Below are positions 7,710-62,890 of a DNA stretch of 64,000 bases, piece after piece. Every line of letters begins with the position of its first letter. Within the stretch, counting starts at the first letter, position 1. Source of the stretch: Candidatus Omnitrophota bacterium (GTDB lineage Bacteria; Omnitrophota; Gorgyraeia; Gygaellales; JAQTUX01); assembly GCA_028707125.1 (NCBI GenBank), contig JAQTUX010000001.1, positions 269,639-333,638 on the forward strand. The letters run 5' to 3'. The notes below the pieces were generated by a model that saw nothing but the letters and a program-made list of their open reading frames with translations, was not told the DNA's origin and made no database searches. Both the position numbers and the translations under genes were made by a program.

Positions 7710-10421
7710 ATGATAACGCTGGAAGACGTTTGGCTGAAATACAGGATAGCGTTCAAGGAAGGCGCGAGGGCCGTTTGCGAGGATTTCTGGGCGCTTAAGG
7801 GCATAGACCTGAATGTCGGCAAGGGAGAGTGTTTCGCGGTCATCGGAGAGAACGGCTCAGGCAAGACCACGCTCCTGAGGGTGATCAGCGGCATGCTAAT
7901 GCCTGACAAGGGCAGGGTGCGCCTGGGAGGAAGGGTCGCCGGGCTTATGGAGATACAGGCCGGTTTCCATCCTGAACTGACCGGCAGGGAGAATATCTAC
8001 AATATCTCGGCGCTTTCAGGCCTGAGCGCCGATGAGACAGGCGCCTGTTACGCGGACATGGTTGAGTTTGCCGCCATCGGCAGGTTCATCAACGCCCCGG
8101 TAAAGACATACTCCCAGGGCATGCTTGTGCGCCTTGCCTTTGCCATAGCCATACACGCGCGCACCGACATATTGCTGGTTGACGACATATTCGCGGTAGG
8201 CGATATTTATGCCCGGCGCAAGTGCATTAATAAGATGTTTGAGCTGAAGGATAAGGGCCTGACCATTATTTTTGTTTCTCATGACCTGGATATTGCCAGG
8301 CGGCTGTGTAAAAGAGGCGTGCTGCTCAGGGAAGGCAGGGTTATCAGGGCCGGTTCAATAGACGGACTCGTCAGTTATTATCTTGAGACGGTAGGCAATA
8401 AGGAAGGTATAGCCCTGCTGCAAAAAGGGCGGCTGGCAATTATTTTTAATAACGGCAAGCTGATCATCAGGTGGAACGACTCCGCTCTTACCAAGGGCGC
8501 GGCCGGGCATACGGTGATGAGCTCTTCGGGCAGGACATATCAGTCAGATACCGCCTCCTGGATTATCCGGCAGCCGGCGGCAGCCGATGAGATCGTTGCC
8601 GTAGGCAGGTGGCCGGATATGCCGGCTGAGCTTATCTGGAAGATACGCTGCCGCGGCGAAAAGGAATTCAGCTGGGATGTAACTCTGCAGGCGCGCGCAC
8701 AGGCCCGGATAGAGGATTACACGGCCAGATTGATCCTGACCGACGAATACGAGGGCTGGTTTACATCGCAGGAGGAATACGTTTTTCCGGAGGCGTTCCT
8801 GCATGAGAACGAATGGCAGAGCCGCCGGATAGACGATCATCTTAACTGGCTGATAGGGTTAAAGACGGGAGCCGATAGCGGCGAAGGCCTGCCAACGCTT
8901 GTTTTAGACAGCTCAGGCGCGGATAAACAGGGCGCCTGCCAGATCGGCAATACCGGCATTGAGGCCTCTGCCAGAGGTATTCAGTTCAATTACGTTAATC
9001 CGGAACCAGAGCATGCCGCGGGCAGCTATAAGTTTTTTTCAACCGGCGTGAAGTTATTTGAGGAGCGGGACAGGCAGGATTTTGAATGTTATATGGCGCG
9101 GGCAAGGCAGGCCGGCAGGCGCAGGATCATCAGCCGCGGCCCGCTCGCCCTGTGTTGCGGGCAGCGCAAAATAGAGATTTTCCTGCGGGATGCGCTTTTA
9201 AGCAGCGGCGCGGGGCTGGATACGAAATTCATCTGGCAGGGCCGTACCTACAGCGCCGCCGGAGGTAACTGGTCCGTAGAAAAAGAAGGAGATAATTATC
9301 TTGTAGTTAATATCTTTTGGGGGCCCGAAGCGCCTTTTTTCCAGGTATGGAGAATGGAACTGCGGGATGAGTCCGCCATTTTCTGGCAGGCGGATATGGA
9401 AATAAGAGATGGGCTGGAGATCAGGAACAGGCAGGTTGAGCTTTTTCTCAGCGGCCGATATGACAGGTGGTTTACGCCTTCGGAAAACGGCGACTTTGGG
9501 GCAGTGGAAAAAAAAGGCAACACAGTCATACTAAGTAAATACATAAACGATTTTTCCGGCGTAGAACAGTCCTGCCTTATGCCGGCGGTTACCTTCGCCA
9601 ATCAAGACGGCCGCGCCAGAGTGTCGTATATTTCCCGGGGCCAGGACAAGGAATTAAATACGAAGCTGCATTATCTGGAGATAGATCCCGCCGCTGACGC
9701 GGCGCTTGAAGCAGGCAGGCACGCCTTTTTTAAGGGGGCCATAAGGATAGCGCCCAGGCAGGGACAAAAAGGCGTTGACGCGGTTGTCAATAATAACGGC
9801 GCGGCCGCGGCGATAAATTTTAACGGCGTTTCTCTGGATTTCAGGCACGGCAGGATGCGTCTTTTCTATGAAGGCGTTGAATTGACAAAAGGGCTGGGCC
9901 TTTACTCTGCGGTTTTGCATGAAGGCAACTGGCATGATTCTTCGCAGGGACTATGGAAGGTCGAGGCCTCGGACAGGGAAAGGTTCGTCGCCGTGGGCCG
10001 CTGGCCGTGGCTGCCTGTCAGGCAGGAATGGGAAGTAACGCTATTGGATGGCCGCGATATCATCTGGCGCATAACCAGGGATACCCGGGACGGCTTTGAT
10101 CCCGACAAGGAGCAGGTTAACCTGATGCTGTCGGATAATTACCGGGAGTGGTTTGTCCGGGAAAGGGCGCGGGGAAGGTTTCCCGAAGAGTTTGCCGAGC
10201 ATACCCGCGGCGGGTTCTGGGAGCGGTTATGGTCGGCGGCAGCGCAGTCGCCGGTCGGCGCCAAAGGGCCTGGGCTGCCGTCTGTCCTCCTGGACTGTTC
10301 AGAGAGCCCGGTTCCCGGCCGCCTGTGCATTGAGAACACGGACGCGTTATTCAAGGCCAGGGTCCTGCAGTGCGAATCGGCGCAGCAAAAACATTTTAGC
10401 GGAAAGATAAAGATATGCTGA
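7710..10421 (+). CDS. wzt: ABC exporter ATP-binding protein (Wzt/TagH-like) with a ~670-aa C-terminal extension made of three copies of an unassigned module
   Basis: Walker A GENGSGKTT, signature-like YSQGMLVRLAFA, Walker B ILLVDDIFAVGD, H-loop VSHD within aa 1-230. The ATG abuts the stop of the permease gene. The extension (nt ~8400-10418) has three ~200-aa repeats at ~8415-9075, ~9125-9760 and ~9805-10418. Confidence 0.9.
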   Translation: MITLEDVWLKYRIAFKEGARAVCEDFWALKGIDLNVGKGECFAVIGENGSGKTTLLRVISGMLMPDKGRVRLGGRVAGLMEIQAGFHPELTGRENIYNISALSGLSADETGACYADMVEFAAIGRFINAPVKTYSQGMLVRLAFAIAIHARTDILLVDDIFAVGDIYARRKCINKMFELKDKGLTIIFVSHDLDIARRLCKRGVLLREGRVIRAGSIDGLVSYYLETVGNKEGIALLQKGRLAIIFNNGKLIIRWNDSALTKGAAGHTVMSSSGRTYQSDTASWIIRQPAAADEIVAVGRWPDMPAELIWKIRCRGEKEFSWDVTLQARAQARIEDYTARLILTDEYEGWFTSQEEYVFPEAFLHENEWQSRRIDDHLNWLIGLKTGADSGEGLPTLVLDSSGADKQGACQIGNTGIEASARGIQFNYVNPEPEHAAGSYKFFSTGVKLFEERDRQDFECYMARARQAGRRRIISRGPLALCCGQRKIEIFLRDALLSSGAGLDTKFIWQGRTYSAAGGNWSVEKEGDNYLVVNIFWGPEAPFFQVWRMELRDESAIFWQADMEIRDGLEIRNRQVELFLSGRYDRWFTPSENGDFGAVEKKGNTVILSKYINDFSGVEQSCLMPAVTFANQDGRARVSYISRGQDKELNTKLHYLEIDPAADAALEAGRHAFFKGAIRIAPRQGQKGVDAVVNNNGAAAAINFNGVSLDFRHGRMRLFYEGVELTKGLGLYSAVLHEGNWHDSSQGLWKVEASDRERFVAVGRWPWLPVRQEWEVTLLDGRDIIWRITRDTRDGFDPDKEQVNLMLSDNYREWFVRERARGRFPEEFAEHTRGGFWERLWSAAAQSPVGAKGPGLPSVLLDCSESPVPGRLCIENTDALFKARVLQCESAQQKHFSGKIKIC

Positions 10422-13400
10422 AGGGCCTTTTATTTAATAACAGGAACAGGCGCGCGATAGAACGCGCCGGCATAAAAATAGATATTGATGAAGAGCGCCG
10501 CTTCAGGATCTACCATAACGGCAGCGAGCTCAGCAAGCTGCAGGGCATGCGCGTCTGTTTGTTTTCAGAGGGCAGATGGCACTATTTTCCCGCCAAAGAC
10601 AGTATCTTGAAGATAAGCAGGCCCGATGAAACCAGTTTTAGTTTGCGGCTTTACAATAGAACGCTGCCTGTTGTCCTGCATTGGGGAATGGAGCTGGGTG
10701 AGGGCAGCCGGTTGAAATGGAGCGTGGAATTAGAGCTAAAGGGGCCCATACGGCTGGATGCCGTGAAGGCCGTAGTGCTCCTCAGCCGTTCCTATAAAAG
10801 CTGGTTCTCTTATTCCGGCGCTAAAGAGGGCCTGTTCGCTGATAGCGCCGGAGAATTCCGGCAGGAGATCGGTATTGCCGATTCTGATTTTTTAAGCATT
10901 GGCGCGGACAGGCCGGAAATTGCCACGCTGCTGTTAAGGGCGGTTGATTCGCCTTTAAATGTTTCTTTGTGTAACACGGATGATCTGTCTTCCTCGCGTG
11001 AAGTTGATCTCTGCTGCAACGGGCAGAAGGAATTTTATGCCCCCGGCAGGCACTCTTGTTTTCAGGCGGTTATTGAACTCTGCGGGGATAAGTCCGCAGT
11101 AGAAAATATCATTCAGGATGTAAAAGGCAGAAAGAGGCGCGAAGAAGAAGAGGCGCTGCGTAAAAAGGAAGAGGAGCGCCTGGCGGAAGAAGAACAGCGC
11201 CGGCTAGAGGAAGAACGCCTGCGCCAGGAGGAACAAAGGCGCCTGGAAGAAGAGCGCCGAAAACAGGAAGAGCTCAAGCGCCTGGAAGAAGAGCGCCTGA
11301 GAATTGAGCGCGCGCGGGACCGGCAGCGGCGCACGCTTGAGGCGGGTGATTTCAGGATTTATTTTGACTACAATAACCGTTTCCATTTCTACCACAGGAA
11401 TGAGGAGTTTACCAAGGCGCATGGCCTGCATACGGGTATATTTTCAGAGGGCCGCTGGTATGGTTCGGCGGATTCAGAGGCCGCTATAGAGAATAGTGAG
11501 CCGGGTAGATTAAGGATCAATTTCAGGCACAGACATCTGCCCGTTATTCAATCCTGGGACCTGCGGTTAGATTCCGCGGGAGTAATCAGGTGGAGCGTTG
11601 ATATGCGGCTTGAGCAGCCGTTAAGGATAGAGCGCAGGAACGCCTGCCTGTTTTTGTCCCGCGCCTATGACAGGTGGCTTGCGCCTCCGGACGCGGGGGC
11701 GTTCCCCGCGGCATTCGGCCTGCAATGGCAGATGGCCAGCCCTTCGGAGAGCAGGCCGGGCTTTATAGGGCTGACGTCCGGGATGAAGCAGCTGCCGGGC
11801 ATAACATTAAAGGGCTCCGAAGACGGCGGCCGCCTGGCTGTTCATAACGCGGATATGGATGTCTCATCCCGCGTCCTTGAGGAGCGTTTTGAAGAGCGCG
11901 TAGAGTTTTACAAGGCAGGCGATTACTCTTTCTCGCGGGCGGTCATCCGGCTTTATAATGATAACGCGGCCATCGAGGGCGCGTTCAAAGAGGCGGAAGA
12001 AAAAGAGAACGCGCTCAGAGAGTTGCGCAAAGAGCGGCTGAGGCGCGCCGCCGGGCTAAGGCAGGGGAGAAAAGAATTTGAGGGGCTGCGCCTGCGCCCC
12101 GCGGCCTCGCGCGTCGTTATTTACGGCGATTCCCAGGGCCTGCACGATAAGATCAGCGGCGAGGCAGGCGGTTTTAACAGGGCCGTAGCGTGCATTAAGG
12201 CAGAAAGCGGCACAGCCGCGGTAGGTATCTCACGGTTTAATTTCTTCAAGATCCATGAGGTCGTCCAGTTCATCTCTACTTTGAGGAACGCGCGGATCGA
12301 TACGCGCCCTGTCTGCCTGCCGCTGTTTCCGGCAAGCGGTATTTACTCCAGTTTTCTTAATTACATAAAGGAGATCAAATCTCTCGTCGCAGGAAAGGGC
12401 ATCGAACTTTTCTTAAAAGACGTTGATCTGCTCAAACTCCTGCAGGCTGTGTCTTCGCAGTCCAATAGAGATAACGAGAGGGACCTGCTGCGGCTTCTGG
12501 GGCTGATAGCCGAGCATCCCTTTATCGGGCCGCAGACGCTGGTCCTCGACACAACGCATAAATGCAATACAAACTGCGCCCATTGCTGGATACACAACCC
12601 CCGCAGCAAGACGCCCCCCGCCGTGCTCGAATCAAAGATGGACGACCGCCTGTACAGGAAGATCATTGACGACGCGGCAGCCATTTTGAGCGACGAGGTC
12701 ATAATACAGGGCGACGGAGAGCCGCTTCTGGACGACCGCTTTATCGAGATGGCGCGTTACGCCAGGGACAAGGGGTTAAAGGTCCTGTTCTTTACCAACG
12801 GCATACTCCTGGATGAGGCGACGGCTAAATGCCTGATAGACCTGGAGGTCAATGAGATATTCTGCAGCCTGCCCGCCGGGACCGACCTGACCTACAGCTG
12901 GATAAATTCGCGGCAGTCAAAAGACACCTTCCACAGGATCGTCGGCAATCTGAAAAACCTGATCTCCCTGAGGAACGGCTCGGGCAGGCCCCTGCCGCTT
13001 TTGCAGATGACCCACGTGATACACAATATGAATTGCCATGAGATCGAGCAGATGTCCGCTGTTGACGCGGACATAGGCGCGGACAGGGCACGCTTCTACC
13101 TGGCCCGCCTTGACGAGAACATCGCGCATTTAAAGATACTATCTTCACAGGTAGAGGCGCTAAAGGCATCCCTGCGGAAGGCCGCCGCGTTGCTTAAAGA
13201 AAGCAAAATAGACCTGCAGGACAATATTTTTTTCCAGCTGGACAATTATCAGCCGGAGACCGGTTACTGGTCGCAGGGCCGTTTTCTTGAAACGGGCTGC
13301 CCGGTGGGGTGGTTTTTCGCGCTGATATTGGCTGGAGGAGAATTGAGCATGTGCTGCCATATGCGGGTGGTCGGGCGCCTGGGGGAAAGATCGCTGAGGG

Positions 13401-13588
13401 AGGCGTGGAATTCCCGGGAATACAACGATTACAGGGTCAAGGCCAAACATATGCGGGACAATATGGACGCGCGTTTCTCAAACGGCGTCAAGCTTTACGA
13501 TGATTTCTGCAATCATTGCGATACGCATCAGGTGATCTTAAGGATAAACGGCCTGCTGGAGCGATACGGGCTGAAGAAATTCTTATAA
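10415..13588 (+). CDS. Multidomain radical-SAM protein: two copies of the Wzt-extension module, an E/R coiled coil, a linker domain and a C-terminal rSAM/SPASM-like catalytic domain
   Basis: CX3CX2C at 12563-12586 (HKCNTNCAHCW), GDGEPLL, and C-terminal Cys motifs GELSMCC...CNHCDTH. The modules lie at ~10472-11085 and ~11336-11965. The gene overlaps the wzt stop by 7 nt. Confidence 0.8.
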   Translation: MLKGLLFNNRNRRAIERAGIKIDIDEERRFRIYHNGSELSKLQGMRVCLFSEGRWHYFPAKDSILKISRPDETSFSLRLYNRTLPVVLHWGMELGEGSRLKWSVELELKGPIRLDAVKAVVLLSRSYKSWFSYSGAKEGLFADSAGEFRQEIGIADSDFLSIGADRPEIATLLLRAVDSPLNVSLCNTDDLSSSREVDLCCNGQKEFYAPGRHSCFQAVIELCGDKSAVENIIQDVKGRKRREEEEALRKKEEERLAEEEQRRLEEERLRQEEQRRLEEERRKQEELKRLEEERLRIERARDRQRRTLEAGDFRIYFDYNNRFHFYHRNEEFTKAHGLHTGIFSEGRWYGSADSEAAIENSEPGRLRINFRHRHLPVIQSWDLRLDSAGVIRWSVDMRLEQPLRIERRNACLFLSRAYDRWLAPPDAGAFPAAFGLQWQMASPSESRPGFIGLTSGMKQLPGITLKGSEDGGRLAVHNADMDVSSRVLEERFEERVEFYKAGDYSFSRAVIRLYNDNAAIEGAFKEAEEKENALRELRKERLRRAAGLRQGRKEFEGLRLRPAASRVVIYGDSQGLHDKISGEAGGFNRAVACIKAESGTAAVGISRFNFFKIHEVVQFISTLRNARIDTRPVCLPLFPASGIYSSFLNYIKEIKSLVAGKGIELFLKDVDLLKLLQAVSSQSNRDNERDLLRLLGLIAEHPFIGPQTLVLDTTHKCNTNCAHCWIHNPRSKTPPAVLESKMDDRLYRKIIDDAAAILSDEVIIQGDGEPLLDDRFIEMARYARDKGLKVLFFTNGILLDEATAKCLIDLEVNEIFCSLPAGTDLTYSWINSRQSKDTFHRIVGNLKNLISLRNGSGRPLPLLQMTHVIHNMNCHEIEQMSAVDADIGADRARFYLARLDENIAHLKILSSQVEALKASLRKAAALLKESKIDLQDNIFFQLDNYQPETGYWSQGRFLETGCPVGWFFALILAGGELSMCCHMRVVGRLGERSLREAWNSREYNDYRVKAKHMRDNMDARFSNGVKLYDDFCNHCDTHQVILRINGLLERYGLKKFL
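11125..11335 (+). other. Highly charged E/R/K/L heptad-like coiled-coil segment (~70 aa)
   Basis: RKRREEEEALRKKEEERLAEEEQRRLEEERLRQEEQRRLEEERRKQEELKRLEEERLRIERARDRQRR, with internal repeats of (E)EQRRLEEER(L/R)R. Confidence 0.8.
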
Positions 13589-13593
13589 AAGAT

Positions 13594-49492: not shown

Positions 49493-49494
49493 CG

Positions 49495-53067: not shown

Positions 53068-53085
53068 GGGCCCGACAGGACTAAC

Positions 53086-54105: not shown

Positions 54106-54153
54106 AAGTCCTTATGCTTCAGTTATCCGTAACCGGCAGCGTTGTTTGATTAA

Positions 54154-55731: not shown

Positions 55732-57464
55732 GGGCCAATTCAAATAACCTGATACTTGCCTCCGCGCTGATATTGGTCGTTATCGTCCGTTTTCAAGGTT
55801 TGGGCAGCGGGCTTCCTTTTCAGTTTGTCAGGGGCGAACCCATAGGCTTTACGGCAGCGCGCGTGCGGGGGCTGGATATAAAGTCAATGCGGGGCCGGTA
55901 TCCCAATTTCCTGCCGATAAGCATAAAGATCGCCGAAGGCGTATTGAGCTATCTAAAGCTGGATAAGCCGATCCTCGCCGCTTATGGACTTTCGCCCCGG
56001 GAAGAAAAAACGTCATTTTTCCTTTCTCAGATAATCTGCCGTTTTTATTCGGCTTTGTTCGGGATAATGGGGATCATCGCTGTATTTCTATTTTCTAAAC
56101 GGTATTTGTCATACACCGTGGGGCTCATTGCCGCGTTTCTGCTTTGCGTTCACCCGCTCCACTTTTTTTACTCCCATTTTGACACGCCCCATATCACGCA
56201 GTCATTTTTTATAATCCTGACCGCCTTTGCCGGATATAACGCGCTGCGAAGAATGAGTGTTGTTAACTTTCTGGCACTCGGCCTGGTTTCCGGCCTGACG
56301 GCTTCAACGCTGCAAAACGGCCTTCTGACATTACCCTTTTTCTGCTGGTTGTTTTTTTATTCTCAGAAGGGCAGGGCCTTTTCCGGGAAGGATTGGCGCC
56401 TTCTTTTTGCAGCGCTGGCGGCCTTCGGCTTATGCGCCCGCATGGTGGGTTATTCATCCGCGTCCACAGGGGGAGATTCGCTTCGTTTCGGTTTTCTCAC
56501 GAGCCCGGATATGCCGGCAATCGTCTTGAATAACGCGCACGAGATATTTTTAAGGGAGTTTGGATTCAAAGGGTTCCGGTTTATGGGATACATCTTGATG
56601 CGCACAAGCCCGGTTATGCTGCTGTTCGCCGTTTTCGGCGGCGTTATGATATTGCTTGACAAAAAAAGGCTTAAGTCGTATCTGCCTTTATTTGTGCTTT
56701 ATGGTCTGTTCATATTCGCTCACGGGACATATAATATGACCACAGAGCGTTATTTTACCGAACCGCTGCCGCTTATGGCGTTGTTGGCGGCGGAGACGGT
56801 CATATTTTTAAAAGAGCGGATAGTCCAGCGTTTCCCCATGAGGCGCGGATGGCTGGCGGCGTCTGTGCTGGTGGTTTTTATCGCTGCCCCCATGTGCCTT
56901 AGGGATGCCGGCATAAATAATTTCCTGAAAAGCAAGAGCACATATACGTTGCTATACGAATGGATGGTGGATCAACGACGGTCATTCGAAGGCAAAAGGG
57001 TGCTTTTTCTGACGAATGTCGGCATGCAGAATGAATCCCTGTTCTTTAAGGCGGCAGACATTATTTTTACCCACAGTAATGTATTTTCCGGAGACAGGCA
57101 AGGTCTGCTTAAGGCGGCTGCCGGGCAAAAGATAGATTATATTATTACTTCAGAATCGTCGTGTTCCTTGCAGCTGCGTGAGGGGGCCTTTCAGCTTCTG
57201 CCGGAGTTTCCTGGATTCGCCAAAATGATAAAGACATTTAACCCCTTAAGGAAGGCGCCTGTTTCAGCCGTGCCCATTCTTGAGGAATGCAGGCAGCTCG
57301 CCTATGAGGAGCGGCTTTACGGCGTGACATTGAAGCAGGATTATTTGTGCTCGGCGATGTTTTTTAGCGCCCTGAGCTATAATATGCACCTGTATTACAG
57401 GCACGCGGAGCGCCCCGGGCCGATGCTTGCCGTGTACAGGGTAACAGCGGAAGATAATGATTAA
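55728..57464 (+). CDS. Polytopic membrane protein, possible GT-C (ArnT/PMT-like) glycosyltransferase
   Basis: ~11 hydrophobic segments followed by a ~200-aa soluble C-terminal domain. The N-terminal loop IVRFQGLGSGLPFQFVRGEPIGF loosely resembles the first-loop acidic motif of GT39/GT83 enzymes. Weak call. Confidence 0.35.
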   Translation: MRANSNNLILASALILVVIVRFQGLGSGLPFQFVRGEPIGFTAARVRGLDIKSMRGRYPNFLPISIKIAEGVLSYLKLDKPILAAYGLSPREEKTSFFLSQIICRFYSALFGIMGIIAVFLFSKRYLSYTVGLIAAFLLCVHPLHFFYSHFDTPHITQSFFIILTAFAGYNALRRMSVVNFLALGLVSGLTASTLQNGLLTLPFFCWLFFYSQKGRAFSGKDWRLLFAALAAFGLCARMVGYSSASTGGDSLRFGFLTSPDMPAIVLNNAHEIFLREFGFKGFRFMGYILMRTSPVMLLFAVFGGVMILLDKKRLKSYLPLFVLYGLFIFAHGTYNMTTERYFTEPLPLMALLAAETVIFLKERIVQRFPMRRGWLAASVLVVFIAAPMCLRDAGINNFLKSKSTYTLLYEWMVDQRRSFEGKRVLFLTNVGMQNESLFFKAADIIFTHSNVFSGDRQGLLKAAAGQKIDYIITSESSCSLQLREGAFQLLPEFPGFAKMIKTFNPLRKAPVSAVPILEECRQLAYEERLYGVTLKQDYLCSAMFFSALSYNMHLYYRHAERPGPMLAVYRVTAEDND

Positions 57465-58497
57465 GATCACAGCGCCGTTTAACAGCAGGGATGAAGTGAA
57501 GATAATGGCCGGATACGGGGCGGATGAGCTTTACTGCGGCTATCTTGCGCCTGAGTGGGCCAGGCATTATTCAAACCTTGAATTTGAAAGAAAAGGGGGG
57601 GTGGAAAGCAATTTTACGGATTTGGACGAACTTAATAAATCGGTTGAGCTGGCGCACCGCTATAATATCCCTGTTTTTCTCGCCTTGAACGGGCTTTACG
57701 TAAGACATCAATATCCGCTCCTTTTGAAGATTATCGATAAACTCAGGCAGATTGATTTTGACGCCTTTATAGTCGCGGATATGGGCCTGATATTAACGCT
57801 GGTTGAGCGCGATATCGGCAAAAAGCTCCACATATCCACGGGAGGCACGGTATTCAATACGGACGCGGTGGGTTTCTACCGCAGGTTCTCTCCGGAGCGC
57901 GTCATTTTAGACCGTCAGCTTACAATCCGGCAGATCAGCGGACTGGTCAAGAGAAACCCGGGCGTGGATTTTGAGGCCTTCATTTTCAGTACGATCTGCG
58001 TTCACATAGACGGGTTTTGTACATTTATGCATTCATACGGCGCAAACAGGGAAGAAAGTATCGCGCACTGCTCAGGGCTGGATCCAAAGCTGTATTTCGC
58101 CACAACATACGATCCCGAGGCTTTTGAGGATGCCTGCTCTTTGCGCTACGCCGTTAAAGTTTATGAACAAGGTAGGGCGGCCAGCCGCAAAAATAATGTA
58201 ATGCCCGCTTTTTATAAACGTCAGATGGACGGTATGGCCTGCGGGATATGCGCGATGTACGACCTGAATAAGGCGGGGGTAAGGGCGGTCAAGGTGGTGG
58301 GAAGGCAGGTTGGCCGTATAAGACGGTTGAAGAGCGTGGAATTCGTCGCGCGGGCGCGCGCCTTATTGGATGCGGATCCCGCTATTAAACGGAAAGAATT
58401 TATTCGGCGCTGTAAAGATATGTATCGCGAAGTTTGGGAATATAAAGGCCGGTGCAAAGGGAACAACTGCTATCATCCTTCTTTTGCGCGCGATTAA
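57457..58497 (+). CDS. Peptidase-U32-family protein (UbiU/TrhP/RlhA-like)
   Basis: ITAPFNSRDEVKIMAGYGADELYCGY, LDELNKSVELAHRYNIPVFLALNG, FDAFIVADMGL, and Cys cluster candidates CVHIDGFCTF...HCSG...MACGICAMY. Confidence 0.7.
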   Translation: MIKITAPFNSRDEVKIMAGYGADELYCGYLAPEWARHYSNLEFERKGGVESNFTDLDELNKSVELAHRYNIPVFLALNGLYVRHQYPLLLKIIDKLRQIDFDAFIVADMGLILTLVERDIGKKLHISTGGTVFNTDAVGFYRRFSPERVILDRQLTIRQISGLVKRNPGVDFEAFIFSTICVHIDGFCTFMHSYGANREESIAHCSGLDPKLYFATTYDPEAFEDACSLRYAVKVYEQGRAASRKNNVMPAFYKRQMDGMACGICAMYDLNKAGVRAVKVVGRQVGRIRRLKSVEFVARARALLDADPAIKRKEFIRRCKDMYREVWEYKGRCKGNNCYHPSFARD

Positions 58498-58515
58498 AAC
58501 AAAGGGAACATCCGG

Positions 58516-59382
58516 ATGGAAAAAGCGGTTTATATAGCGGATAAAAGGCGGCTGAAGAGTTTGAAGAAGGGCGCGGCCACAAGGATCTATTTCGGGGCTG
58601 AGTTCTGCGAGCGGCTTATCCCTTCCATTGGGGAGTGCAGGGAGGTTATTTCCCGGGCGCGCGATAAAGGCATGGATTTCTCGCTGGTCACTCCTTATGT
58701 GACCGACACAGGTATCAGCCGCCTAAGGTGTTTATTCGATCTTATGTCCTGCCTGGATGTGCCCGTTGAGGTGATAGTGAATGATTGGGGTGTTTTGGGC
58801 CGGTTGCGTAATGAATATACCGGACTTGTGCCTGTTCTGGGGCGTCTTTTGACCAAGCAGAAGAGGGGGCCGCGCATAAGGCGGCTGCTGGAAAGGCGCC
58901 TTCCTTCAAAGATCATCCGGCCGAAAGAGCCGTCGCGGCAGGGCGCAATGATTATTGTCGCCGAGAAACTTCCTCCGGATACCGATTTTTATTACCGCGG
59001 TTCCAGTGTCACGAGCGTGCCCGTAATCCATAAATTTCTTAAAGAAAATAACGTATACAGGATCGAGATTGATAACCTTCTGCAGGGTATTTATCTGGAG
59101 ATGGAGAATTCAGGCATTTCGGTGTCCGTCTATACGCCCTACGCGTATATATCGACTACGATGTTCTGCCCTACTGTCGGCTGCGAACGGAAGAAAAAGC
59201 CGTTTTTAAGGGTGCGCCCCTGCGTGAAAGAATGCCGCAGGTACACATTCCGCCTGAGGCATAAAAGCATGCCGGAAGATATCATTTTAAAAGGGAACAC
59301 GCAATTTTACAAAAACGGCCTCGGCTCGATCAGAAAATTAGAGCAGGCAGGTATAGATCGTATAGTGTATCAGCAATTGTAA
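58516..59382 (+). CDS. Second, shorter U32-like protein (UbiV-like partner candidate)
   Basis: GAATRIYFGAEFCERLIP, ARDKGMDFSLVTPYVTD, VEVIVNDWGVL, C-terminal Cys MFCPTVGCE...RPCVKEC. 288 aa, directly downstream of the 346-aa U32 gene. Confidence 0.5.
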   Translation: MEKAVYIADKRRLKSLKKGAATRIYFGAEFCERLIPSIGECREVISRARDKGMDFSLVTPYVTDTGISRLRCLFDLMSCLDVPVEVIVNDWGVLGRLRNEYTGLVPVLGRLLTKQKRGPRIRRLLERRLPSKIIRPKEPSRQGAMIIVAEKLPPDTDFYYRGSSVTSVPVIHKFLKENNVYRIEIDNLLQGIYLEMENSGISVSVYTPYAYISTTMFCPTVGCERKKKPFLRVRPCVKECRRYTFRLRHKSMPEDIILKGNTQFYKNGLGSIRKLEQAGIDRIVYQQL

Positions 59383-59397
59383 TTTAAGGGTGGGGTT

Positions 59398-60798
59398 GTG
59401 ATCGTGACACGGATCAAACATAAGTTTTTCCTGATGTTCGGTGCTGTTTTAGTTTTCCTGCTCATGCTTGAGGTCGTATTTCGCATAGCGGGATTCATTC
59501 TGCTGTCGTTTCAGGAGAGGGATAACCCGGTTTTGCTGGATAAACAGGAGGAGCTCCGTATTGTGTGCCTGGGAGAGTCCACCACCGCCTTCGGCGGCAG
59601 GGATTCTTATCCTTATCAATTGCAGGAGGTCCTGAGCGCCAGGATCCCCGGGGTTAAATTCAAGGTCATCAACAAAGGCGTTGCCGGAGTTGATACGGCG
59701 TTTTTCCTTTCCAAACTTGATGAGAATTTGGCCAGATATAAGCCCGATATGGTCATTACGATGTTGGGGACCAACCAGAATGATAATTCAATGAAATTTG
59801 AGGAAACACTGAGATTCAGGATAAAGCTGCTGGTGTATGAAATCAAGGTCTATAAGATGGTACGCCTGCTTTTTGACAGGATGAGGGTTAAATCCCGCAA
59901 CCGCATCTACGATAGAATGTATATGCCGCCGAATGAGGCGGGCGCCGGAGTGGCCCCTGATAGCGACCGCGCATACACGGAGATGGGGTTTATGGAGAAA
60001 GAGCAGGGCCGCCGCATCAGGGCGCTGGGACATTTCAAAAAGGCGATCCGGATGAATCCTTCAAACAGCTGGGCGCGTGTCGGCCTGGCCATGGTTTATA
60101 AAGAGATGGGCAGATTGGATGAGGCAATAGGCGCGCTCAGGGCCGCTATAGAAATAAACCCTTTGAGCGAGGCAGGCAACAGGGAGCTGGCGTGGTGCCT
60201 AAAGAAACAAAAGAGGTATGATGAGGCGGGATCCATATATCAAAAGATCATTAAGGATATAAAACCGCAAAACGGCTTCCTGTATATGGAGGCGGGATTA
60301 TTTTATAAAGAGATGGGCAGGTACCCGGAGGCGATTTCCGCCTTTGAGCGCGGTTTTGAGCTTAACCCTGAGACGGAAAACTTCTACGGCGACCTCGCCT
60401 TTTGTTATGAGCAGGCCGGCAAAGACGACCTGGCAAAGAGGTGCTATAGTAAATTTAATAAGTCGCTTTACACAACTTATAACCCCGCCACGATCTACAA
60501 TTACAGGCAATTGCGTGACAGGATCCTGGCAAAAGGTATTTTGCTGGTTTGTATGCAATATCCGGTGCGTCCCGTGGAGCCGTTAAGGCGCATCCTTGAG
60601 GGGCGTGAAGTGGTCATCTTCGTTGATAACGAGCGGGTCTTCAAGATGGCGGTAGCCAGGGACGGCTATGAGGAGTATTTTTATGATAATTTCCGCGGCG
60701 ATTTCGGCCATTGTACCCGCAAGGGCAACCGGCTGCTTGCCGAAAACCTTGCCGGTGTGCTGGAAAGGGAATGTTTCCGGGAAAGGACGAAGATATGA
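59398..60798 (+). CDS. Membrane-anchored SGNH-TPR paralog 4 (GES variant, GTG start)
   Basis: Anchor FFLMFGAVLVFLLMLEVVF. RIVCLGESTTAFGG, MVITMLGTNQND, RGDFGHCTRKGNRLLA. Clear TPR repeats in the insert (AYTEMGFMEKEQGRRIRALGHFKKAIRMNPSNSWARVGLAMVYKEMGRLDEAIGALRAAIEINP). Confidence 0.7.
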   Translation: MIVTRIKHKFFLMFGAVLVFLLMLEVVFRIAGFILLSFQERDNPVLLDKQEELRIVCLGESTTAFGGRDSYPYQLQEVLSARIPGVKFKVINKGVAGVDTAFFLSKLDENLARYKPDMVITMLGTNQNDNSMKFEETLRFRIKLLVYEIKVYKMVRLLFDRMRVKSRNRIYDRMYMPPNEAGAGVAPDSDRAYTEMGFMEKEQGRRIRALGHFKKAIRMNPSNSWARVGLAMVYKEMGRLDEAIGALRAAIEINPLSEAGNRELAWCLKKQKRYDEAGSIYQKIIKDIKPQNGFLYMEAGLFYKEMGRYPEAISAFERGFELNPETENFYGDLAFCYEQAGKDDLAKRCYSKFNKSLYTTYNPATIYNYRQLRDRILAKGILLVCMQYPVRPVEPLRRILEGREVVIFVDNERVFKMAVARDGYEEYFYDNFRGDFGHCTRKGNRLLAENLAGVLERECFRERTKI

Positions 60799-61784
60799 AT
60801 GTCGGATTGACGAACAGGTGTAATTTCAACTGTCCGTTTTGTTTTGCCAGGGACGCCATGTCCATCAGCAGGGCGATGAAGCAAGACAATGAGATCAGCA
60901 TGGACAGTATAAACAAGGTAATAAGATTCCTTAAAAAGTCGGGGCAGGATACCTTTAATATGATAGGCGGCGAGCCCACGCTGCATTCCAGGTTCAGGGA
61001 TATTTACGAGAAGATCGAGAATGAAGGCCTTGCCGTGTCGGTTTTTTCCAATGGCCTGATGCGCGAGGGCATAGCAGAGTTCCTCAGAGAAAGAAAAGGC
61101 CTCAGATGCGTCCTCATTAATATCCTTGAGCCGAGGCATTACACCAAGGAATTATGGGGCACGCTCAACAGGGCCCTGTCTGTGCTCAAGGATAAGGCCG
61201 TCCTGAGTTTCAGGATATACGAAACGGCCTTCAGGATCGATTTTCTCATTCCTTTGATCGACCGCTACGGCCTTTGCAGGGCAGTGAACCTGGCGCCGGC
61301 CTGCCCCAGCCTGAAAAGAAAAAACGTGTTTTTGCAAATAGAAGACCATAAACGGGTTTCCGCGAAGCTTCTGCGTTATTCATACAGGTTCCGGCAGCAC
61401 CGGATAAAGTGGTATTCCGATAACGGATTTATATATTGCGCCTTTACGCGTGAGCAGCTTAAGGGGCTGTACGCAAACACAGGGTTTATCCCGGCTTGCG
61501 TATGCCGCGCGCCCGTAGAGGTGGCGCCGAATCTTACGGTATTCAGGTGTTTCGGCATGGCGGAAAAATCCGACAGGGATATGAAGCTGACAGATTTCAG
61601 CGACCTGGCTTCGCTTGAGTGGTTTTTTGATAAAAAAACCTTTGTCTTGAAACGCGCCGGATTAAAGGACGAATGTCTCTACTGCGGCGATATGGAAAAG
61701 GGCAATTGCGACGGCGGCTGCGCGGTGCATATTATCAGAAGATTTCCGGGTTATAAGACGGCATCGGCACTGTATAAACAATGA
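60795..61784 (+). CDS. Radical-SAM protein with C-terminal Cys-rich (SPASM-like) region, subfamily D member 1
   Basis: The ATG at 60795 (ATGA overlap) gives MNVGLTNRCNFNCPFCFA and is preferred to the track start at 60711. IGGEPTLHSRF, NLTVFRCFG, ECLYCGDMEKGNCDGGC. Confidence 0.8.
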   Translation: MNVGLTNRCNFNCPFCFARDAMSISRAMKQDNEISMDSINKVIRFLKKSGQDTFNMIGGEPTLHSRFRDIYEKIENEGLAVSVFSNGLMREGIAEFLRERKGLRCVLINILEPRHYTKELWGTLNRALSVLKDKAVLSFRIYETAFRIDFLIPLIDRYGLCRAVNLAPACPSLKRKNVFLQIEDHKRVSAKLLRYSYRFRQHRIKWYSDNGFIYCAFTREQLKGLYANTGFIPACVCRAPVEVAPNLTVFRCFGMAEKSDRDMKLTDFSDLASLEWFFDKKTFVLKRAGLKDECLYCGDMEKGNCDGGCAVHIIRRFPGYKTASALYKQ

Positions 61785-62890
61785 TCGGGATAAACGTAAA
61801 CATAAACAGTTATTGTGATCTTGATTGTCCATACTGTTTCGGCAAGGAGTATATGCGCAGCAGCGCTCATAGGCTTGCCAGAAGCGAGATGACGTTTAAC
61901 GGATTCAGGAAGGCCGTTGATTTCCTGAGGAGGGCCAGGGTGAATATCTGCAATATAGGCGGAGGCGAGCCCACCCTGCATCCGAGATTCATTCAATTCG
62001 CCGCCTACGCCCTTTCGCAGGGCTGTTTTCCGGTACAGGTTTATACGAACGGCTTATTTTCCGAACGCGTCCGAGGCGCGCTGACAGATATTAAAGATAA
62101 AAGAAGATTATTCTTTCTTTGGAATATCAATCATCCGAAGTCATATTCAAAAGACAACTGGAGGCGGCTCAATGAGAACTTAAGCGTTATCGCCGCTCTG
62201 GGCACCTCCAGTTTCGGGGTAAACTTATATAAGAGACGGCAGGACCTGGATTATGTTTATGAATTAGCGGATAGATATTCGCCTTTGCAGCTGCGTTTAT
62301 GCGTTGCCCATCCGTCCGGTCCCGGGGCGCGCAATCGGTTTGTGGCAACCGGCGAAAGCCCGGCTGTGATAAAGGACGCCATGAAACTGATAAGGGGCCT
62401 GCGGCGTCGAGGGATGAGGGTTATATTTGACTGCGGCATAGTGCCTTGCCTGTTGAGTGATAAGGACCTCGGCTTCCTCACCAGGCACGGCGTTCATTTA
62501 GGCGCCTGCCGCAACCTCGCCGTGATAGGGCCCGATCTGAGCGTCTTTAATTGTTTTCAGAACGACAGCGTTACGGACAGGAGGACTCTTGGAGATTTTT
62601 CTTCTCTTCAGGAGATAGAAAAGCATCTTTCTGAAATAAGGTCGCGATTCGATATGGTCTTTCTTTTCAAGGAATGCCTGCGCTGTCCGATGTCGTGCGA
62701 CCTCGGATGCCTGGCTGAAAGGAAGATGATCGCCGCTGACTATGCCGGCTCCTTGCGGCGTACGCTCAAGAGGAAAGGCGCTGATCCCGGAGCCGGCCCG
62801 GCGATCGGGATGTTCCATTCCGGGCAGGAGAAAGAAGCCGGGGCGTATATTTACGGCAGCTCTTCCAGGGGCATTAAGGCCGGCAGATGA
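61781..62890 (+). CDS. Radical-SAM protein, subfamily D member 2
   Basis: INVNINSYCDLDCPYCFG, GGGEPTLHPRF, DLSVFNCFQ, ECLRCPMSCDLGC. Paralog of the preceding gene. Confidence 0.8.
   Translation: MIGINVNINSYCDLDCPYCFGKEYMRSSAHRLARSEMTFNGFRKAVDFLRRARVNICNIGGGEPTLHPRFIQFAAYALSQGCFPVQVYTNGLFSERVRGALTDIKDKRRLFFLWNINHPKSYSKDNWRRLNENLSVIAALGTSSFGVNLYKRRQDLDYVYELADRYSPLQLRLCVAHPSGPGARNRFVATGESPAVIKDAMKLIRGLRRRGMRVIFDCGIVPCLLSDKDLGFLTRHGVHLGACRNLAVIGPDLSVFNCFQNDSVTDRRTLGDFSSLQEIEKHLSEIRSRFDMVFLFKECLRCPMSCDLGCLAERKMIAADYAGSLRRTLKRKGADPGAGPAIGMFHSGQEKEAGAYIYGSSSRGIKAGR

What the first reader, a model, noticed from the sequence alone, without database searches (positions are those of the whole stretch)
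10415..62890. Systematic start/stop overlaps across about 45 consecutive genes (translational coupling at operon scale)
Nearly every junction overlaps or abuts. There are ATGA overlaps at 15795, 18166, 24452, 37990, 55728, 60795, 61781 and 62887, and TAATG at 17114 and 47398. Longer overlaps of 7-35 nt occur at 10415, 19163, 20421, 21418, 22481, 23463, 25488, 26512, 28478, 30633, 32047, 33323, 34348, 36383, 38978, 41614, 48365, 51270, 52195 and 57457. Only 42826-42983 exceeds 50 nt. Several track ORFs had to be shortened to downstream ATGs to fit this pattern (13594, 30633, 38978, 44180, 51270, 52195, 60795). Such compaction implies stoichiometric co-expression and argues that the rSAM, SGNH, GT and export genes function as one system rather than as juxtaposed islands.
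Basis: seen in the sequence. Interest (0 to 1): 0.3.

Follow-up and report, generated by a model that had tools for sequence, protein, structure and literature searches.

The report
Overlapping genes in radical-SAM supercluster
In one uncultured Omnitrophota bacterium, about two thirds of the gene boundaries in a run of more than 45 same-strand enzyme genes overlap; this is a real but lineage-specific squeezing-out of spacers, an extreme case of ordinary bacterial gene overlap, not proof that all the genes are made in fixed ratios.

Summary
All 30 overlap coordinates are in the sequence. The only error is that 37990 is GTGA; the likely start is ATG 37993, a 1-nt TGATG overlap. Start reassignment does not remove the overlaps. 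Conserved motifs, two independent annotations (Logan gene calls, NCBI proteins MDD4909326-357) and start-site signatures leave 25-29 of 42 junctions overlapping, against about 15% typical of prokaryotes. In related Omnitrophota clusters only 15 of 99 adjacent paralog junctions overlap, against 6 of 9 here (p=0.0016), so the compaction belongs to this lineage, not to the system. Overlaps lie in unconserved protein tails. Long ones are almost all in the -8/-11/-14 phase, where off-frame ATGs are three times commoner. About half the junctions (-8 to +10 nt) fall where termination-reinitiation coupling has been shown; a third (10-35 nt) do not. The one "gap" holds the only 11-of-12 sigma-70-like promoter in 58 kb and an unannotated, conserved 35-codon membrane ORF, so at least two transcription units are likely. 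The pair with the 35-nt overlap (24452/25488) is a single fused ORF in relatives. The rSAM, SGNH and exporter genes recur together elsewhere; most of the glycosyltransferase block does not. Ordinary phenomenon, unusually extreme instance.

The parts
6933..42825 (+). Probable transcription unit 1: ABC-2 permease, ABC ATPase with repeat modules, 21 radical SAM genes (13 of them paralogs of one rSAM-SPASM family) and 3 SGNH-TPR genes, all on one strand.
   Evidence: Pfam; paralog alignment A1; terminator-like sites do not exceed chance.
42822..42849 (+). Sigma-70-like promoter, TTGACA-16 nt-TAGAAT. The -35 element overlaps the TGA stop of the SGNH-TPR gene.
   Evidence: it is the only site with at least 11 of 12 matches on the + strand of 6-64 kb, 0.38 are expected by chance, and P of landing in this gap is about 0.001.
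42875..42982 (+). Unannotated 35-codon ORF for a single-pass membrane mini-protein (MRFILTVLLTIAALGMDCFLWLLKRIKKICVFPGG). Its stop lies 1 nt before the GT4 ATG.
   Evidence: A homologous ORF ending ...KKIRKIVIFPGG* lies directly before the GT4 ortholog in L029, and analogous 34-aa transmembrane ORFs lie before it in L023 and L024. NCBI protein numbering skips it.
42984..64000 (+). Probable unit 2: GT4, Wzy_C-TPR, two GT2, GT4, Bac_transf, DUF362, an unknown, rSAM, a methyltransferase, rSAM, PMT_2, a U32 (UbiU-like) gene with an unknown partner, SGNH-TPR and three rSAM. It continues beyond the window.
   Evidence: Pfam; continuation on L010.
10415..10421 (+). 7-nt overlap between the ABC ATPase and the 1057-aa rSAM gene. 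It lies inside an array of roughly 220-aa repeat modules that forms one polypeptide in L007.
15795..15798 (+). ATGA, 4-nt overlap.
17112..17116 (+). TAATG, 1-nt overlap; GGAGGT lies 5 nt upstream.
18166..18169 (+). ATGA, 4-nt overlap, no SD.
19163..19176 (+). 14-nt overlap (the SGNH-TPR start sits inside the rSAM tail).
20436..20449 (+). It is obligatory: the next start cuts the conserved P.FC/CX3CX2C core.
21418..21443 (+). 26-nt overlap, ambiguous: ATG 21463 (+19 nt) would also give a normal N-terminus.
22481..22488 (+). 8-nt overlap with a GTG start; it is the only start upstream of the conserved core.
23469..23479 (+). 11-nt overlap (NCBI start); obligatory.
24452..24455 (+). ATGA, 4-nt overlap; the GAGGAGG SD is formed by Glu codons of the upstream tail.
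25488..25522 (+). 35-nt overlap, obligatory. The ATG comes from the codon pair GAT|GAA and a purine-rich AGGAAGAAGG from the QEEG codons. The two genes are one fused ORF in relatives.
26518..26531 (+). 11-20-nt overlap (candidate starts at 26512, 26518 and 26521); obligatory.
28484..28494 (+). 11-nt overlap (ATG from GAT|GAA of the upstream tail).
30633..30640 (+). 8-nt overlap.
32047..32054 (+). 8-nt overlap; the only start before the signal anchor.
33326..33357 (+). 32-nt overlap; obligatory.
34348..34357 (+). 10-nt overlap (one of two long overlaps in the other phase).
36383..36402 (+). 20-nt overlap (NCBI start); TTG 36413 is an alternative.
37991..37995 (+). TGATG, 1-nt overlap, AGGAGG 4 nt upstream.
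38978..38991 (+). 14-nt overlap (NCBI start); ATG 38999 is an alternative.
47396..47400 (+). TAATG, 1-nt overlap between the two GT2 genes.
48365..48378 (+). 14-nt overlap; the only available start.
51270..51283 (+). 14-nt overlap (NCBI start; it gives a signal peptide). The Logan call at 51234 would give 50 nt.
52195..52211 (+). 17-nt overlap (NCBI start); AAGGAGG lies just upstream.
55728..55731 (+). ATGA, 4-nt overlap.
57457..57464 (+). 8-nt overlap. The UbiU profile aligns from residue 5 of this start.
60795..60798 (+). ATGA, 4-nt overlap.
61781..61784 (+). ATGA, 4-nt overlap.
62887..62890 (+). ATGA, 4-nt overlap (ATG 62893 is an alternative).

Best explanation
The window comes from a Candidatus Omnitrophota metagenome-assembled genome (MAG). 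It carries a very long same-strand array: an ABC-2 exporter, at least 26 radical SAM genes, SGNH-TPR genes and glycan-assembly genes. In this lineage the intergenic spacers have been lost.

Start codons now sit inside the unconserved C-terminal tails of the upstream genes. Where the two frames allow it, the result is the canonical ATGA or TAATG/TGATG arrangement (12 junctions). In the other frame the nearest usable ATG lies 8-35 nt upstream of the stop (about 17 junctions). Such an ATG typically arises from an NAT-Gxx codon pair in the acidic tail of the rSAM-SPASM family.

The array is most likely transcribed as at least two long polycistronic units, with a promoter at 42822-42849.

Translation of the roughly half of the genes whose junctions lie between -8 and +10 nt is probably coupled to the upstream gene by termination-reinitiation (inferred). 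Genes with longer overlaps, or with 13-48-nt spacers, probably depend on fresh initiation at A-rich, weakly folded start regions (inferred).

The compaction does not set fixed ratios and is not needed for the system to work, because related clusters keep spacers. It belongs to a continuum of boundary states in these arrays (spacer, overlap, fusion), produced by deletions and frameshifts in linkers. The 24452/25488 pair is the clearest case.
For: Starts are real.
- Conserved cores forbid downstream alternatives at 16 or more junctions.
- In 118 database homologues the lead before the first Cys is at least 15 residues at the 5th percentile.
- Logan gene calls and NCBI annotation both place overlapping starts.
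- Start regions have lower GC (0.44 against 0.52), weaker folding (-10.5 against -13.8 kcal/mol, p=8e-6) and A-rich upstream sequence (p=3e-4). This holds equally for overlapping and non-overlapping starts.

The compaction is lineage-specific.
- Adjacent paralog pairs overlap in 6 of 9 cases here against 15 of 99 in relatives.
- The distance between conserved cores of neighbouring paralogs is 89 nt against 116 nt (p=0.008), with no correlation with GC.
- Syntenic clusters L012 and L019 (L019 has the same GC, 0.52) have mostly positive spacers at the same junctions.
- C-terminal tails are of normal length for the family (median 11 aa), so the spacers and N-terminal leads shrank.

Phase of the overlaps.
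- 18 of 20 long overlaps are in the -8/-11/-14 phase.
- Off-frame ATG is 3.1 times commoner in that frame, while off-frame stops are equally frequent.
- The same phase rule holds across prokaryotes (PMC10666635).

Transcription.
- Terminator-like counts on both strands are at chance.
- There is a single 11-of-12 promoter-like site, located at the only large gap.

Fusion.
- L021:11523-13658 is one 711-aa ORF. Its N-half is the ortholog of gene 24452 (59% identity) and its C-half the ortholog of gene 25488 (51%).
- Five relatives carry two-copy fused ORFs and one carries a three-copy ORF.
- Repeat modules sit in the ATPase in L007 but in the following rSAM gene here.
Against: - No transcript or ribosome-profiling data exist, so co-transcription, promoter use and coupling are all inferred.
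- The SD signal is weak. 33% of starts reach -6 kcal/mol against 19% of background positions (p=0.03), so the mode of initiation in this phylum is uncertain.
- I could not measure the genome-wide spacing of this 1.26-Mb contig. The compaction may therefore be genome-wide rather than cluster-specific. Only two non-cluster junctions are visible (+77 and +277 nt).
- Sigma-70 consensus rules may not transfer to Omnitrophota.
- The direction of change is not resolved: spacer loss here, or spacer gain elsewhere.
Confidence: 0.65

Rival explanations
1. One reading: the overlaps were selected to couple translation along the whole 45-gene chain, so that all products of one machine are made in fixed proportions.
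For: - Twelve junctions have the canonical -4 or -1 form.
- Overlapping pairs are enriched for subunits of heteromeric complexes in other organisms (PMC10666635).
- Adjacent paralogs are fused in relatives, which by Rosetta-stone logic suggests physical partnership.
- TPR domains and shared repeat modules suggest scaffolding.
Against: - Related and syntenic clusters of the same system have spacers at these junctions.
- Fourteen junctions overlap by 10-35 nt, and six are spacers of at least 13 nt. Both lie outside the range where coupling has been shown (PMC10666635).
- A strong promoter-like site splits the array.
- By inference, pure reinitiation through 40 junctions would decay unless each step were nearly 100% efficient.
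- Enzymes of a pathway do not in general need equimolar synthesis.
Confidence: 0.15
2. Purely neutral compaction: deletion bias removed the spacers and the overlaps have no effect on expression.
For: - The feature is lineage-specific.
- Overlaps are confined to unconserved tails.
- The phase bias is explained by ATG availability.
Against: - Start regions embedded in upstream genes still show selected start-site features: low GC, low structure and A-richness.
- The -4 and -1 forms are over-represented among the short overlaps, as expected if coupling is favoured (PMC10666635).
- Upstream of the array the spacers are +77 and +277 nt.
Confidence: 0.12
3. Artefact: the overlaps result from wrong start calls, or from assembly frameshifts that break what are really long fused ORFs of the giant-protein type known in Omnitrophota.
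For: - Simple longest-ORF calls do exaggerate some overlaps (20421, 23463, 38798, 44096, 51234).
- Fused versions of the same gene pairs exist in relatives.
- Giant multi-enzyme proteins that include radical SAM and GT1 domains are reported in the phylum (bioRxiv 10.64898/2026.06.07.730766).
Against: - The same protein sequences and junctions are found in the NCBI MAG and in Logan assemblies of two sequencing runs, SRR22315508 and SRR22315506.
- Each downstream ORF has its own start codon at the position expected from 118 stand-alone homologues.
- Start regions carry initiation signatures.
- Twenty-nine independent frameshift errors in these assemblies, which I take to be short-read, are implausible.
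- Gene calls that avoid overlap at 20514, 23544 and 27562 cut into the CX3CX2C iron-sulfur motif.
Confidence: 0.05
4. Programmed ribosomal frameshifting at some junctions (for example -1 slippage on A-AAG at 10403-10412) makes fusion proteins alongside the separate products.
For: - Homology runs without a break across the 10415 junction when compared with the L007 ATPase.
- Two A-AAG motifs lie in the 19-nt window where both frames are open (sequence).
- The 24452/25488 pair is fused elsewhere.
Against: - There is no canonical slippery heptamer.
- No stimulatory structure was looked for or found.
- Rfam finds nothing in the window.
- An ATG start is available at every junction, which is the simpler explanation.
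Confidence: 0.03

Closest known systems
Overlapping co-directional gene pairs translated by termination-reinitiation (Huber et al. 2019, PMC6728339; Huber et al. 2023, PMC10666635)
   Same: ATGA, TAATG/TGATG and -8 junctions between same-strand genes. Long overlaps are restricted to the -8/-11/-14 phase. In some cases the SD lies inside the upstream gene.
   Different: The overlap rate is 60-69% of junctions, against about 15% (at most about 30%) genome-wide in other groups. Long overlaps (10-35 nt) are as frequent as the -4/-1 class, whereas elsewhere they are four-fold rarer. The run is over 40 genes long. Coupling has not been tested here.
Gene fusion and fission ("Rosetta stone") pairs
   Same: The neighbouring genes 24452 and 25488 are one ORF in L021, and probably in L023 and L024. 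Other paralog pairs and a triple are fused in L026, L028 and L013.
   Different: Here the unfused state is an overlap in different frames rather than separated genes. Physical interaction of the products has not been tested.
Giant multi-enzyme proteins of Omnitrophota (bioRxiv 10.64898/2026.06.07.730766)
   Same: Same phylum. Their domain content is reported to include radical SAM, GT1 and TPR scaffolds tiled along one polypeptide.
   Different: This window encodes separate proteins of 200-1057 aa, plus one 2016-aa protein outside the array. No homology between this array and any reported giant protein was tested.
ABC-transporter-dependent glycan export loci (Wzm/Wzt type, O-antigen or capsule)
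   Same: An ABC2_membrane plus ABC_tran pair, an initiating Bac_transf enzyme, GT2 and GT4 enzymes, a Wzy_C-domain protein and a PMT_2 enzyme.
   Different: No Wzt_C carbohydrate-binding domain was detected; the ATPase carries novel roughly 220-aa repeats instead. Twenty-six radical SAM genes have no counterpart in known loci of this type.
Radical SAM/SPASM peptide-maturation clusters (RiPPs), such as the SynChlorMet (SCM) cassette
   Same: Many rSAM-SPASM enzymes. Just past the window end lie a PqqD-like recognition protein, an HprK-like protein and a 67-aa Cys/Trp/Gly/Ser-rich ORF.
   Different: No protein reaches any NCBIfam family cutoff. No precursor peptide has been established. The 13-fold paralog array and the SGNH-TPR and exporter genes are not features of known cassettes.

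Membership tests
Translationally coupled overlapping gene pairs (termination-reinitiation) | Adjacent genes lie on the same strand. | tested here: met
   All 46 long ORFs of the window are on the + strand.
Translationally coupled overlapping gene pairs (termination-reinitiation) | The stop-start distance lies within about -8 to +10 nt. | tested here: inconclusive
   Met at about 22 of 42 junctions. Fourteen are overlaps of 10-35 nt and six are spacers of at least 13 nt.
Translationally coupled overlapping gene pairs (termination-reinitiation) | An SD motif lies inside the 3' end of the upstream gene (usual in most phyla). | tested here: inconclusive
   33% of starts reach -6 kcal/mol or better against 19% of background positions (p=0.03). 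A dozen overlapping starts have only a very weak SD, weaker than -3 kcal/mol.
Translationally coupled overlapping gene pairs (termination-reinitiation) | Downstream translation depends on upstream translation. | not testable with these tools
   Needs reporter assays or ribosome profiling.
Single operon (one transcription unit) | No internal intrinsic terminators. | tested here: inconclusive
   Terminator-like counts on both strands are at chance: 28 against 21.9, 27 against 19.8 and 23 against 23.8. All lie inside genes. The scan is a simple consensus search.
Single operon (one transcription unit) | No internal promoter. | tested here: not met
   TTGACA-16-TAGAAT lies at 42822-42849, in the only large gap. 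It is the sole site in 58 kb with at least 11 of 12 matches.
Single operon (one transcription unit) | Continuous transcript coverage. | not testable with these tools
   No RNA data are available.
ABC-transporter-dependent glycan pathway (Wzm/Wzt) | An ABC-2 permease with an ABC ATPase. | tested here: met
   PF01061 at 6933-7709 and PF00005 at 7710-10421.
ABC-transporter-dependent glycan pathway (Wzm/Wzt) | A Wzt C-terminal carbohydrate-binding domain. | tested here: not met
   No Pfam hit in the C-terminal 670 residues. Novel repeats occupy that region instead.
ABC-transporter-dependent glycan pathway (Wzm/Wzt) | An initiating phosphoglycosyltransferase and glycosyltransferases. | tested here: met
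   Bac_transf at 4.7e-60, two GT2 and two GT1/GT4.
RiPP cluster with rSAM-SPASM maturases | A PqqD-like recognition element. | tested here: met
   L010:12458-12739, PF05402, 34 bits against a cutoff of 23.4. It lies 240 nt beyond the window end.
RiPP cluster with rSAM-SPASM maturases | An identifiable precursor peptide. | tested here: inconclusive
   A 67-aa ORF at L010:14864-15067 has a Cys/Trp/Gly/Ser-rich C-terminal half but matches no family.
SynChlorMet (SCM) cassette | ScmC, ScmD, ScmE and ScmF score above the NCBIfam cutoffs. | tested here: not met
   Scores are 20-99 bits against cutoffs of 100-400.
Named radical SAM families (AhbD, NirJ, PqqE, HpnJ, BchE and others) | The score reaches the curated cutoff. 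| tested here: not met
   None of the 13 rSAM proteins tested reaches any cutoff. The best is HpnJ, 272 bits against 578.

The most novel reading that the evidence does not exclude
The junction states seen across Omnitrophota for the same gene pairs (spacer, out-of-frame overlap, in-frame fusion) may be stages of one process by which long enzyme arrays are welded into the phylum's giant multi-enzyme proteins. On this reading the overlaps mark neighbours that work as obligate physical partners on an exporter-docked assembly line of more than 30 radical SAM enzymes. The overlaps would then be a readable map of subunit contacts in an uncharacterised anaerobic tailoring machine.
Probability: 0.2. 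Interest if true: 0.6.

Novelty: new member of a known kind. Interest (0 to 1): 0.3.

Why it matters
Gene overlap with probable translational coupling is textbook biology, so the finding opens no new question. Its value is practical and comparative.
- It fixes the gene model of an unusually large radical SAM supercluster. This includes three starts that one gene caller placed inside the iron-sulfur motif, and one small gene that the annotations missed.
- It shows that overlap cannot be used on its own as evidence that the glycosyltransferase block and the rSAM block form one system.
- It gives a clean natural series (spacer, overlap, fusion at orthologous junctions) for studying how gene boundaries move. 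That series could also be used to choose paralog pairs for co-expression when the enzymes are eventually characterised.

Tried and rejected
- The search for related loci with the 13-paralog alignment failed because no stretch was conserved enough. I used a single protein instead.
- Exact look-ups of 34348-36402, 36383-37993 and 39966-41636 in the contig index found nothing. The cause is a cut contig or a GTG start translated as Val. The cluster look-up later confirmed 36383, 37993 and 38978 as NCBI starts.
- The window's own genome is not among the GTDB representatives. I therefore could not compute a genome-wide spacing baseline.
- NCBIfam placed no rSAM protein in any named family.
- Rfam found no RNA element.
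- Pfam found nothing for the repeat modules, for 51270, for 58516, for the small ORF, or for the 412-aa antisense ORF at 21802-23040, which I regard as spurious.
- GC content as the cause of the overlaps is rejected. There is no correlation across loci, and L019 has the same GC but keeps spacers.
- C-terminal extension through stop-codon loss as the origin is rejected for the paralog array, because the tails have the family's normal length.
- One of my queries ("ATPase_repeat_mod") was out of frame. Its 0 of 24 result should be ignored.
- Paper searches found no description of this cluster.

Full report
**Source and layout**

The window holds 46 long ORFs, all on the + strand. Exact protein matches place it in a "Candidatus Omnitrophica/Omnitrophota bacterium" MAG. 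The contig is 1,261,957 bp and the proteins are MDD4909326-MDD4909357. The same sequence is present in Logan assemblies of SRR22315508 and SRR22315506.

Pfam gives this order:
- a 2016-aa protein with a Peptidase_S74 C-terminus, and a 23S_rRNA_IVP gene;
- an ABC-2 permease and a 903-aa ABC ATPase;
- 21 radical SAM (rSAM) genes interleaved with three SGNH-TPR genes, running up to 42825;
- a block of GT4, Wzy_C-TPR, two GT2, GT4, Bac_transf, DUF362, a methyltransferase, PMT_2 and U32 genes, with two more rSAM genes;
- a fourth SGNH-TPR gene and three further rSAM genes that run off the end of the window.

The same-strand run continues for at least 9 kb past the window, with five more rSAM genes.

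**Is the observation in the sequence?**

Yes. All 30 coordinates carry the stated start codon and overlap length. The exception is 37990, which is GTGA. The adjacent ATG 37993 has AGGAGG 4 nt upstream and is the NCBI start, giving a 1-nt TGATG overlap.

**Do better start calls remove the overlaps?**

No. Three independent lines agree.

1. Conserved sequence. Thirteen genes are paralogs of one rSAM-SPASM family, 34-43% identical (A1).
   - Their conserved core begins at a P.FC motif 11 residues before the CX3CX2C cluster motif and ends at NCF.
   - At 20436, 22481, 23469, 24452, 25488, 26518, 33326 and 37993 there is no start codon between the upstream stop and this core.
   - In 118 database homologues the lead before the first Cys is at least 15 residues at the 5th percentile.
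   - Similar reasoning fixes 17114, 32047, 34348, 48365, 51270, 55728, 60795 and 61781. Here the constraint is a signal anchor or the only available start.
   - The UbiU profile aligns from residue 5 of the 57457 start.
2. Annotation. Gene calls on the Logan contigs and the NCBI proteins both place overlapping starts.
   - The Logan caller avoided overlap at 20514, 23544 and 27562, but those starts cut into the CX3CX2C motif. NCBI uses 20436, 23469 and 27505 instead.
3. Start-site signatures. The 42 start regions have lower GC (0.44 against 0.52), weaker predicted folding (-10.5 against -13.8 kcal/mol, p=8e-6) and A-rich upstream sequence (p=3e-4). Overlapping and non-overlapping starts do not differ.

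Tally of the 42 junctions:

| Class | Number |
|---|---|
| Overlapping, best estimate | 29 |
| Overlapping, minimum | 25 |
| Not overlapping | 13 |

For 21418, 36383, 38978 and 62887 a credible non-overlapping alternative exists. NCBI places 41641 at +4 nt, where the Logan call at 41614 would overlap.

**Is it more than expected?**

Published surveys give about 15% overlapping same-strand pairs in most prokaryotic groups, and about 30% at most (PMC6728339). The -4, -1 and -8 forms dominate, and longer overlaps are four-fold rarer (PMC10666635).

- Against a generous 30% background, 25 of 42 gives p=7e-5.
- Using only the Logan-type gene calls, 24 of 38 junctions overlap here. In two related clusters, L007 and L009, 6 of 30 do (Fisher p=4e-4).
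- A scan of one genome per species returned 23 related loci, mostly Omnitrophota MAGs, with 171 ORFs of the paralog family.
  - I applied one conservative start rule to all of them. Adjacent paralog pairs overlap in 15 of 99 cases elsewhere and in 6 of 9 here (p=0.0016).
  - An annotation-free measure is the distance from the last conserved Cys of one paralog to the first Cys of the next. Its median is 89 nt here against 116 nt elsewhere (p=0.008).
  - It does not correlate with GC.
- L012 (GC 0.47) and L019 (GC 0.52, the same as the window) keep the gene order 10415-13594-15795-17114-18166-20436-21463-22481 at 50-78% identity. They have mostly positive spacers at the same junctions.

The compaction is therefore real and belongs to this lineage, not to the system.

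**Anatomy of the overlaps**

- They lie in the variable C-terminal tails (4-23 aa after NCF) and the short N-terminal leads.
- Tails here have the family's usual length (median about 11 aa). Spacers and leads shrank; the tails did not grow.
- Eighteen of 20 long overlaps are in the -8/-11/-14 phase. This matches the general rule (PMC10666635).
- A simple local cause explains the phase. Off-frame ATG is 3.1 times commoner in that frame, because NAT-Gxx codon pairs create it. Off-frame stops are equally frequent in both frames.
- The family's acidic tail (NC[YF][YF][ED][ED]) supplies both an ATG (TAT|GAA, GAT|GAA) and purine-rich SD-like sequence. At 25488 the motif is AGGAAGAAGG-CG-ATG; at 24452 it is GAGGAGG.

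**Translation signals**

SD complementarity is only weakly enriched. 33% of starts reach -6 kcal/mol against 19% of background positions (p=0.03). A dozen overlapping starts are weaker than -3 kcal/mol. Strong SDs occur at 17114, 24452, 37993, 39966, 42984, 44180 and 52195.

**Transcription**

- Promoter-like and terminator-like counts are at chance overall.
- The only + strand site matching 11 of 12 sigma-70 consensus positions in 58 kb is TTGACA-16-TAGAAT at 42822-42849, inside the single large gap. About 0.38 such sites are expected by chance, and the probability of one landing there is about 0.001.
- Nineteen nt downstream of its predicted transcription start lies a 35-codon ORF, 42875-42982. 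It has a purine-rich leader and encodes a single-pass membrane peptide. It ends 1 nt before the GT4 ATG.
- A homologous ORF (...KKIRKIVIFPGG*) precedes the GT4 ortholog in L029. Analogous 34-aa transmembrane ORFs precede it in L023 and L024. NCBI did not annotate it.
- So the "gap" is coding, and it probably also starts a second transcription unit. No terminator precedes it, so read-through from unit 1 is likely (sequence).

**Do the genes form one system?**

- Within 10 kb of the arrays in 24 related loci I find:
  - present: B12-rSAM (19 loci), TPR-rSAM (18), the repeat module of gene 10415 (17), SGNH-TPR (10-13) and the ABC-2 exporter (5; limited by how far the flanks reach);
  - absent: GT2, Bac_transf, DUF362, PMT_2, U32 and methyltransferase homologues.
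- GT4 with its small ORF recurs in 3 loci, in L029 in the same order SGNH, small ORF, GT4.
- The ATPase carries three copies of a roughly 220-aa module with no Pfam match. The next gene (10415) carries two more copies, flanking a Glu/Arg-rich coiled coil, ahead of its rSAM-SPASM domain.
- In L007 the module, coiled coil and module lie inside the 1663-aa ATPase. The gene boundary at the 7-nt overlap has therefore moved relative to L007.
- Together this links exporter, rSAM and SGNH genes well, and the GT block only loosely.

**Fusions**

- Five related loci contain single ORFs of 675-735 aa with two complete copies of the paralog family.
- One ORF of 1428 aa contains three copies of the 15795 type.
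- L021:11523-13658 (711 aa, from a single-cell genome) has the ortholog of gene 24452 as its N-half (59% identity, 439 bits against 273 for the next best). Its C-half is the ortholog of gene 25488 (51%, 380 against 244 bits). L024 and L023 show the same pairing more weakly.
- In the window these two genes are joined by the longest, obligatory overlap (35 nt). The DNA between their cores is much shorter than the 39-aa linker of L021.
- The same junction thus exists as spacer, overlap or fusion in different lineages. A deletion in a linker whose length is not a multiple of three would produce exactly the state seen here (inference).

**Mechanism**

Shown:
- the starts are embedded in upstream genes;
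- those starts carry start-site signatures;
- the compaction is lineage-specific;
- there is a promoter-like site and a small ORF at the block boundary;
- there are fusion counterparts in relatives.

Inferred:
- Transcription runs as two or more long polycistronic RNAs.
- Termination-reinitiation coupling operates at the roughly 22 junctions within -8 to +10 nt, the range where it has been demonstrated and beyond which it falls off steeply (PMC10666635).
- Fresh initiation at open, A-rich sites occurs elsewhere, helped by upstream ribosomes keeping the RNA unfolded.
- A chain of 40 purely reinitiating junctions would lose expression progressively, so the scattered strong SDs probably reload ribosomes.
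- Fixed stoichiometry does not follow from the overlaps.

**Comparison, novelty and score**

The phenomenon is the known class of overlapping, probably coupled, same-strand genes. This is an unusually dense and long instance with an atypical excess of long overlaps.

It meets the geometric criteria of coupling at about half the junctions. The functional criterion cannot be tested here, and the single-operon criterion of having no internal promoter is not met.

The gene content resembles both ABC-transporter-dependent glycan loci and rSAM-SPASM peptide-maturation clusters.
- Just beyond the window lie a PqqD-like protein, an HprK-like protein and a 67-aa Cys/Trp/Gly/Ser-rich ORF.
- No protein reaches any curated family cutoff, and membership of the SCM cassette is not met.
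- I found no paper describing the cluster.
- A 2026 preprint reports giant multi-enzyme proteins with radical SAM, GT1 and TPR content in the phylum. That makes the spacer-overlap-fusion series worth following.

For the finding as stated, interest is modest (0.3): a real, well-supported and extreme example of an ordinary feature, with an interpretation that is only partly right.

Noticed in passing
window 42875-42982 (+): An unannotated 35-aa single-pass membrane ORF lies between the SGNH-TPR and GT4 genes. It is conserved upstream of the GT4 ortholog in L029 (C-terminus KKIRKIVIFPGG), and analogous ORFs occur in L023 and L024. It is a candidate small protein or leader ORF coupled to GT4.
   Followed up: partly
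window 6188-6769: The 23S_rRNA_IVP-family gene (6257-6655) is bracketed by 41-nt inverted repeats rich in TATCAG/CTGATA (6188-6228 and 6729-6769, 83% complementary) and by an inner perfect 15-nt pair. It looks like an inserted cassette or a long stem.
   Followed up: partly
window 129-6179 (+): A 2016-aa protein whose only Pfam match is a C-terminal Peptidase_S74 (endosialidase chaperone) domain lies directly upstream of the array. No homologue is present in the 24 related loci.
   Followed up: no
window 8400-12000 (+); L007:956-5947; L009:4827-8891: A roughly 220-aa repeat module with no Pfam match occurs three times in the ABC ATPase C-terminus. It occurs twice, flanking a Glu/Arg-rich coiled coil, in the N-half of the next rSAM protein. 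Copy number and host gene differ between relatives, and it is found in 17 of 24 related loci.
   Followed up: partly
L021:11523-13658, L023:17478-19685, L024:12286-14457, L026:7904-10009, L028:1362-3389, L013:16308-20594: Single ORFs containing two (and in L013 three) complete tandem copies of rSAM-SPASM paralogs that are separate genes in the window.
   Followed up: yes
L010:12458-19144 (window coordinates about 64238-70924): Just past the window end lie a PqqD-like protein (above the Pfam cutoff), three rSAM-SPASM genes and a 67-aa ORF (MARKRKLKFDPQITKVKLHPEQAVLACQCWNTGLWGPNWQHSGSSSGCAFNGKYYVSFLTGAGATSS) that looks like a modified-peptide precursor. A second U32 pair and an HprK-like protein follow. 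All score far below the SCM cassette cutoffs.
   Followed up: partly
window 57457-59382 (+) and L010:16121-18071: A U32 protein that aligns to the UbiU anaerobic hydroxylase profile (100 bits, below the cutoff), followed by an unknown protein of about 280 aa, occurs twice in the array. This may be an oxygen-independent hydroxylase pair.
   Followed up: no
window 20514, 23544, 27562: The gene calls held for the Logan contigs start three rSAM genes at ATGs inside the CX3CX2C motif, apparently drawn by AGGTG-like sequences. The resulting database proteins (309, 303 and 310 aa) are truncated.
   Followed up: yes
window 35010-35042 (+): The best terminator-like hairpin on the coding strand (8-bp stem followed by TTTTTT) lies inside the TPR-rSAM gene 34348-36402.
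   Followed up: no
window 21802-23040 (-): A 412-aa antisense ORF spans two rSAM genes. It has no Pfam match and is probably spurious.
   Followed up: partly
L012, L019, L025, L027, L033 record titles: Several MAGs carrying this array are labelled Planctomycetia, Planctomycetales or Patescibacteria, yet they share syntenic orthologous clusters with Omnitrophota MAGs. This points to possible mislabelling or mis-binning.
   Followed up: no
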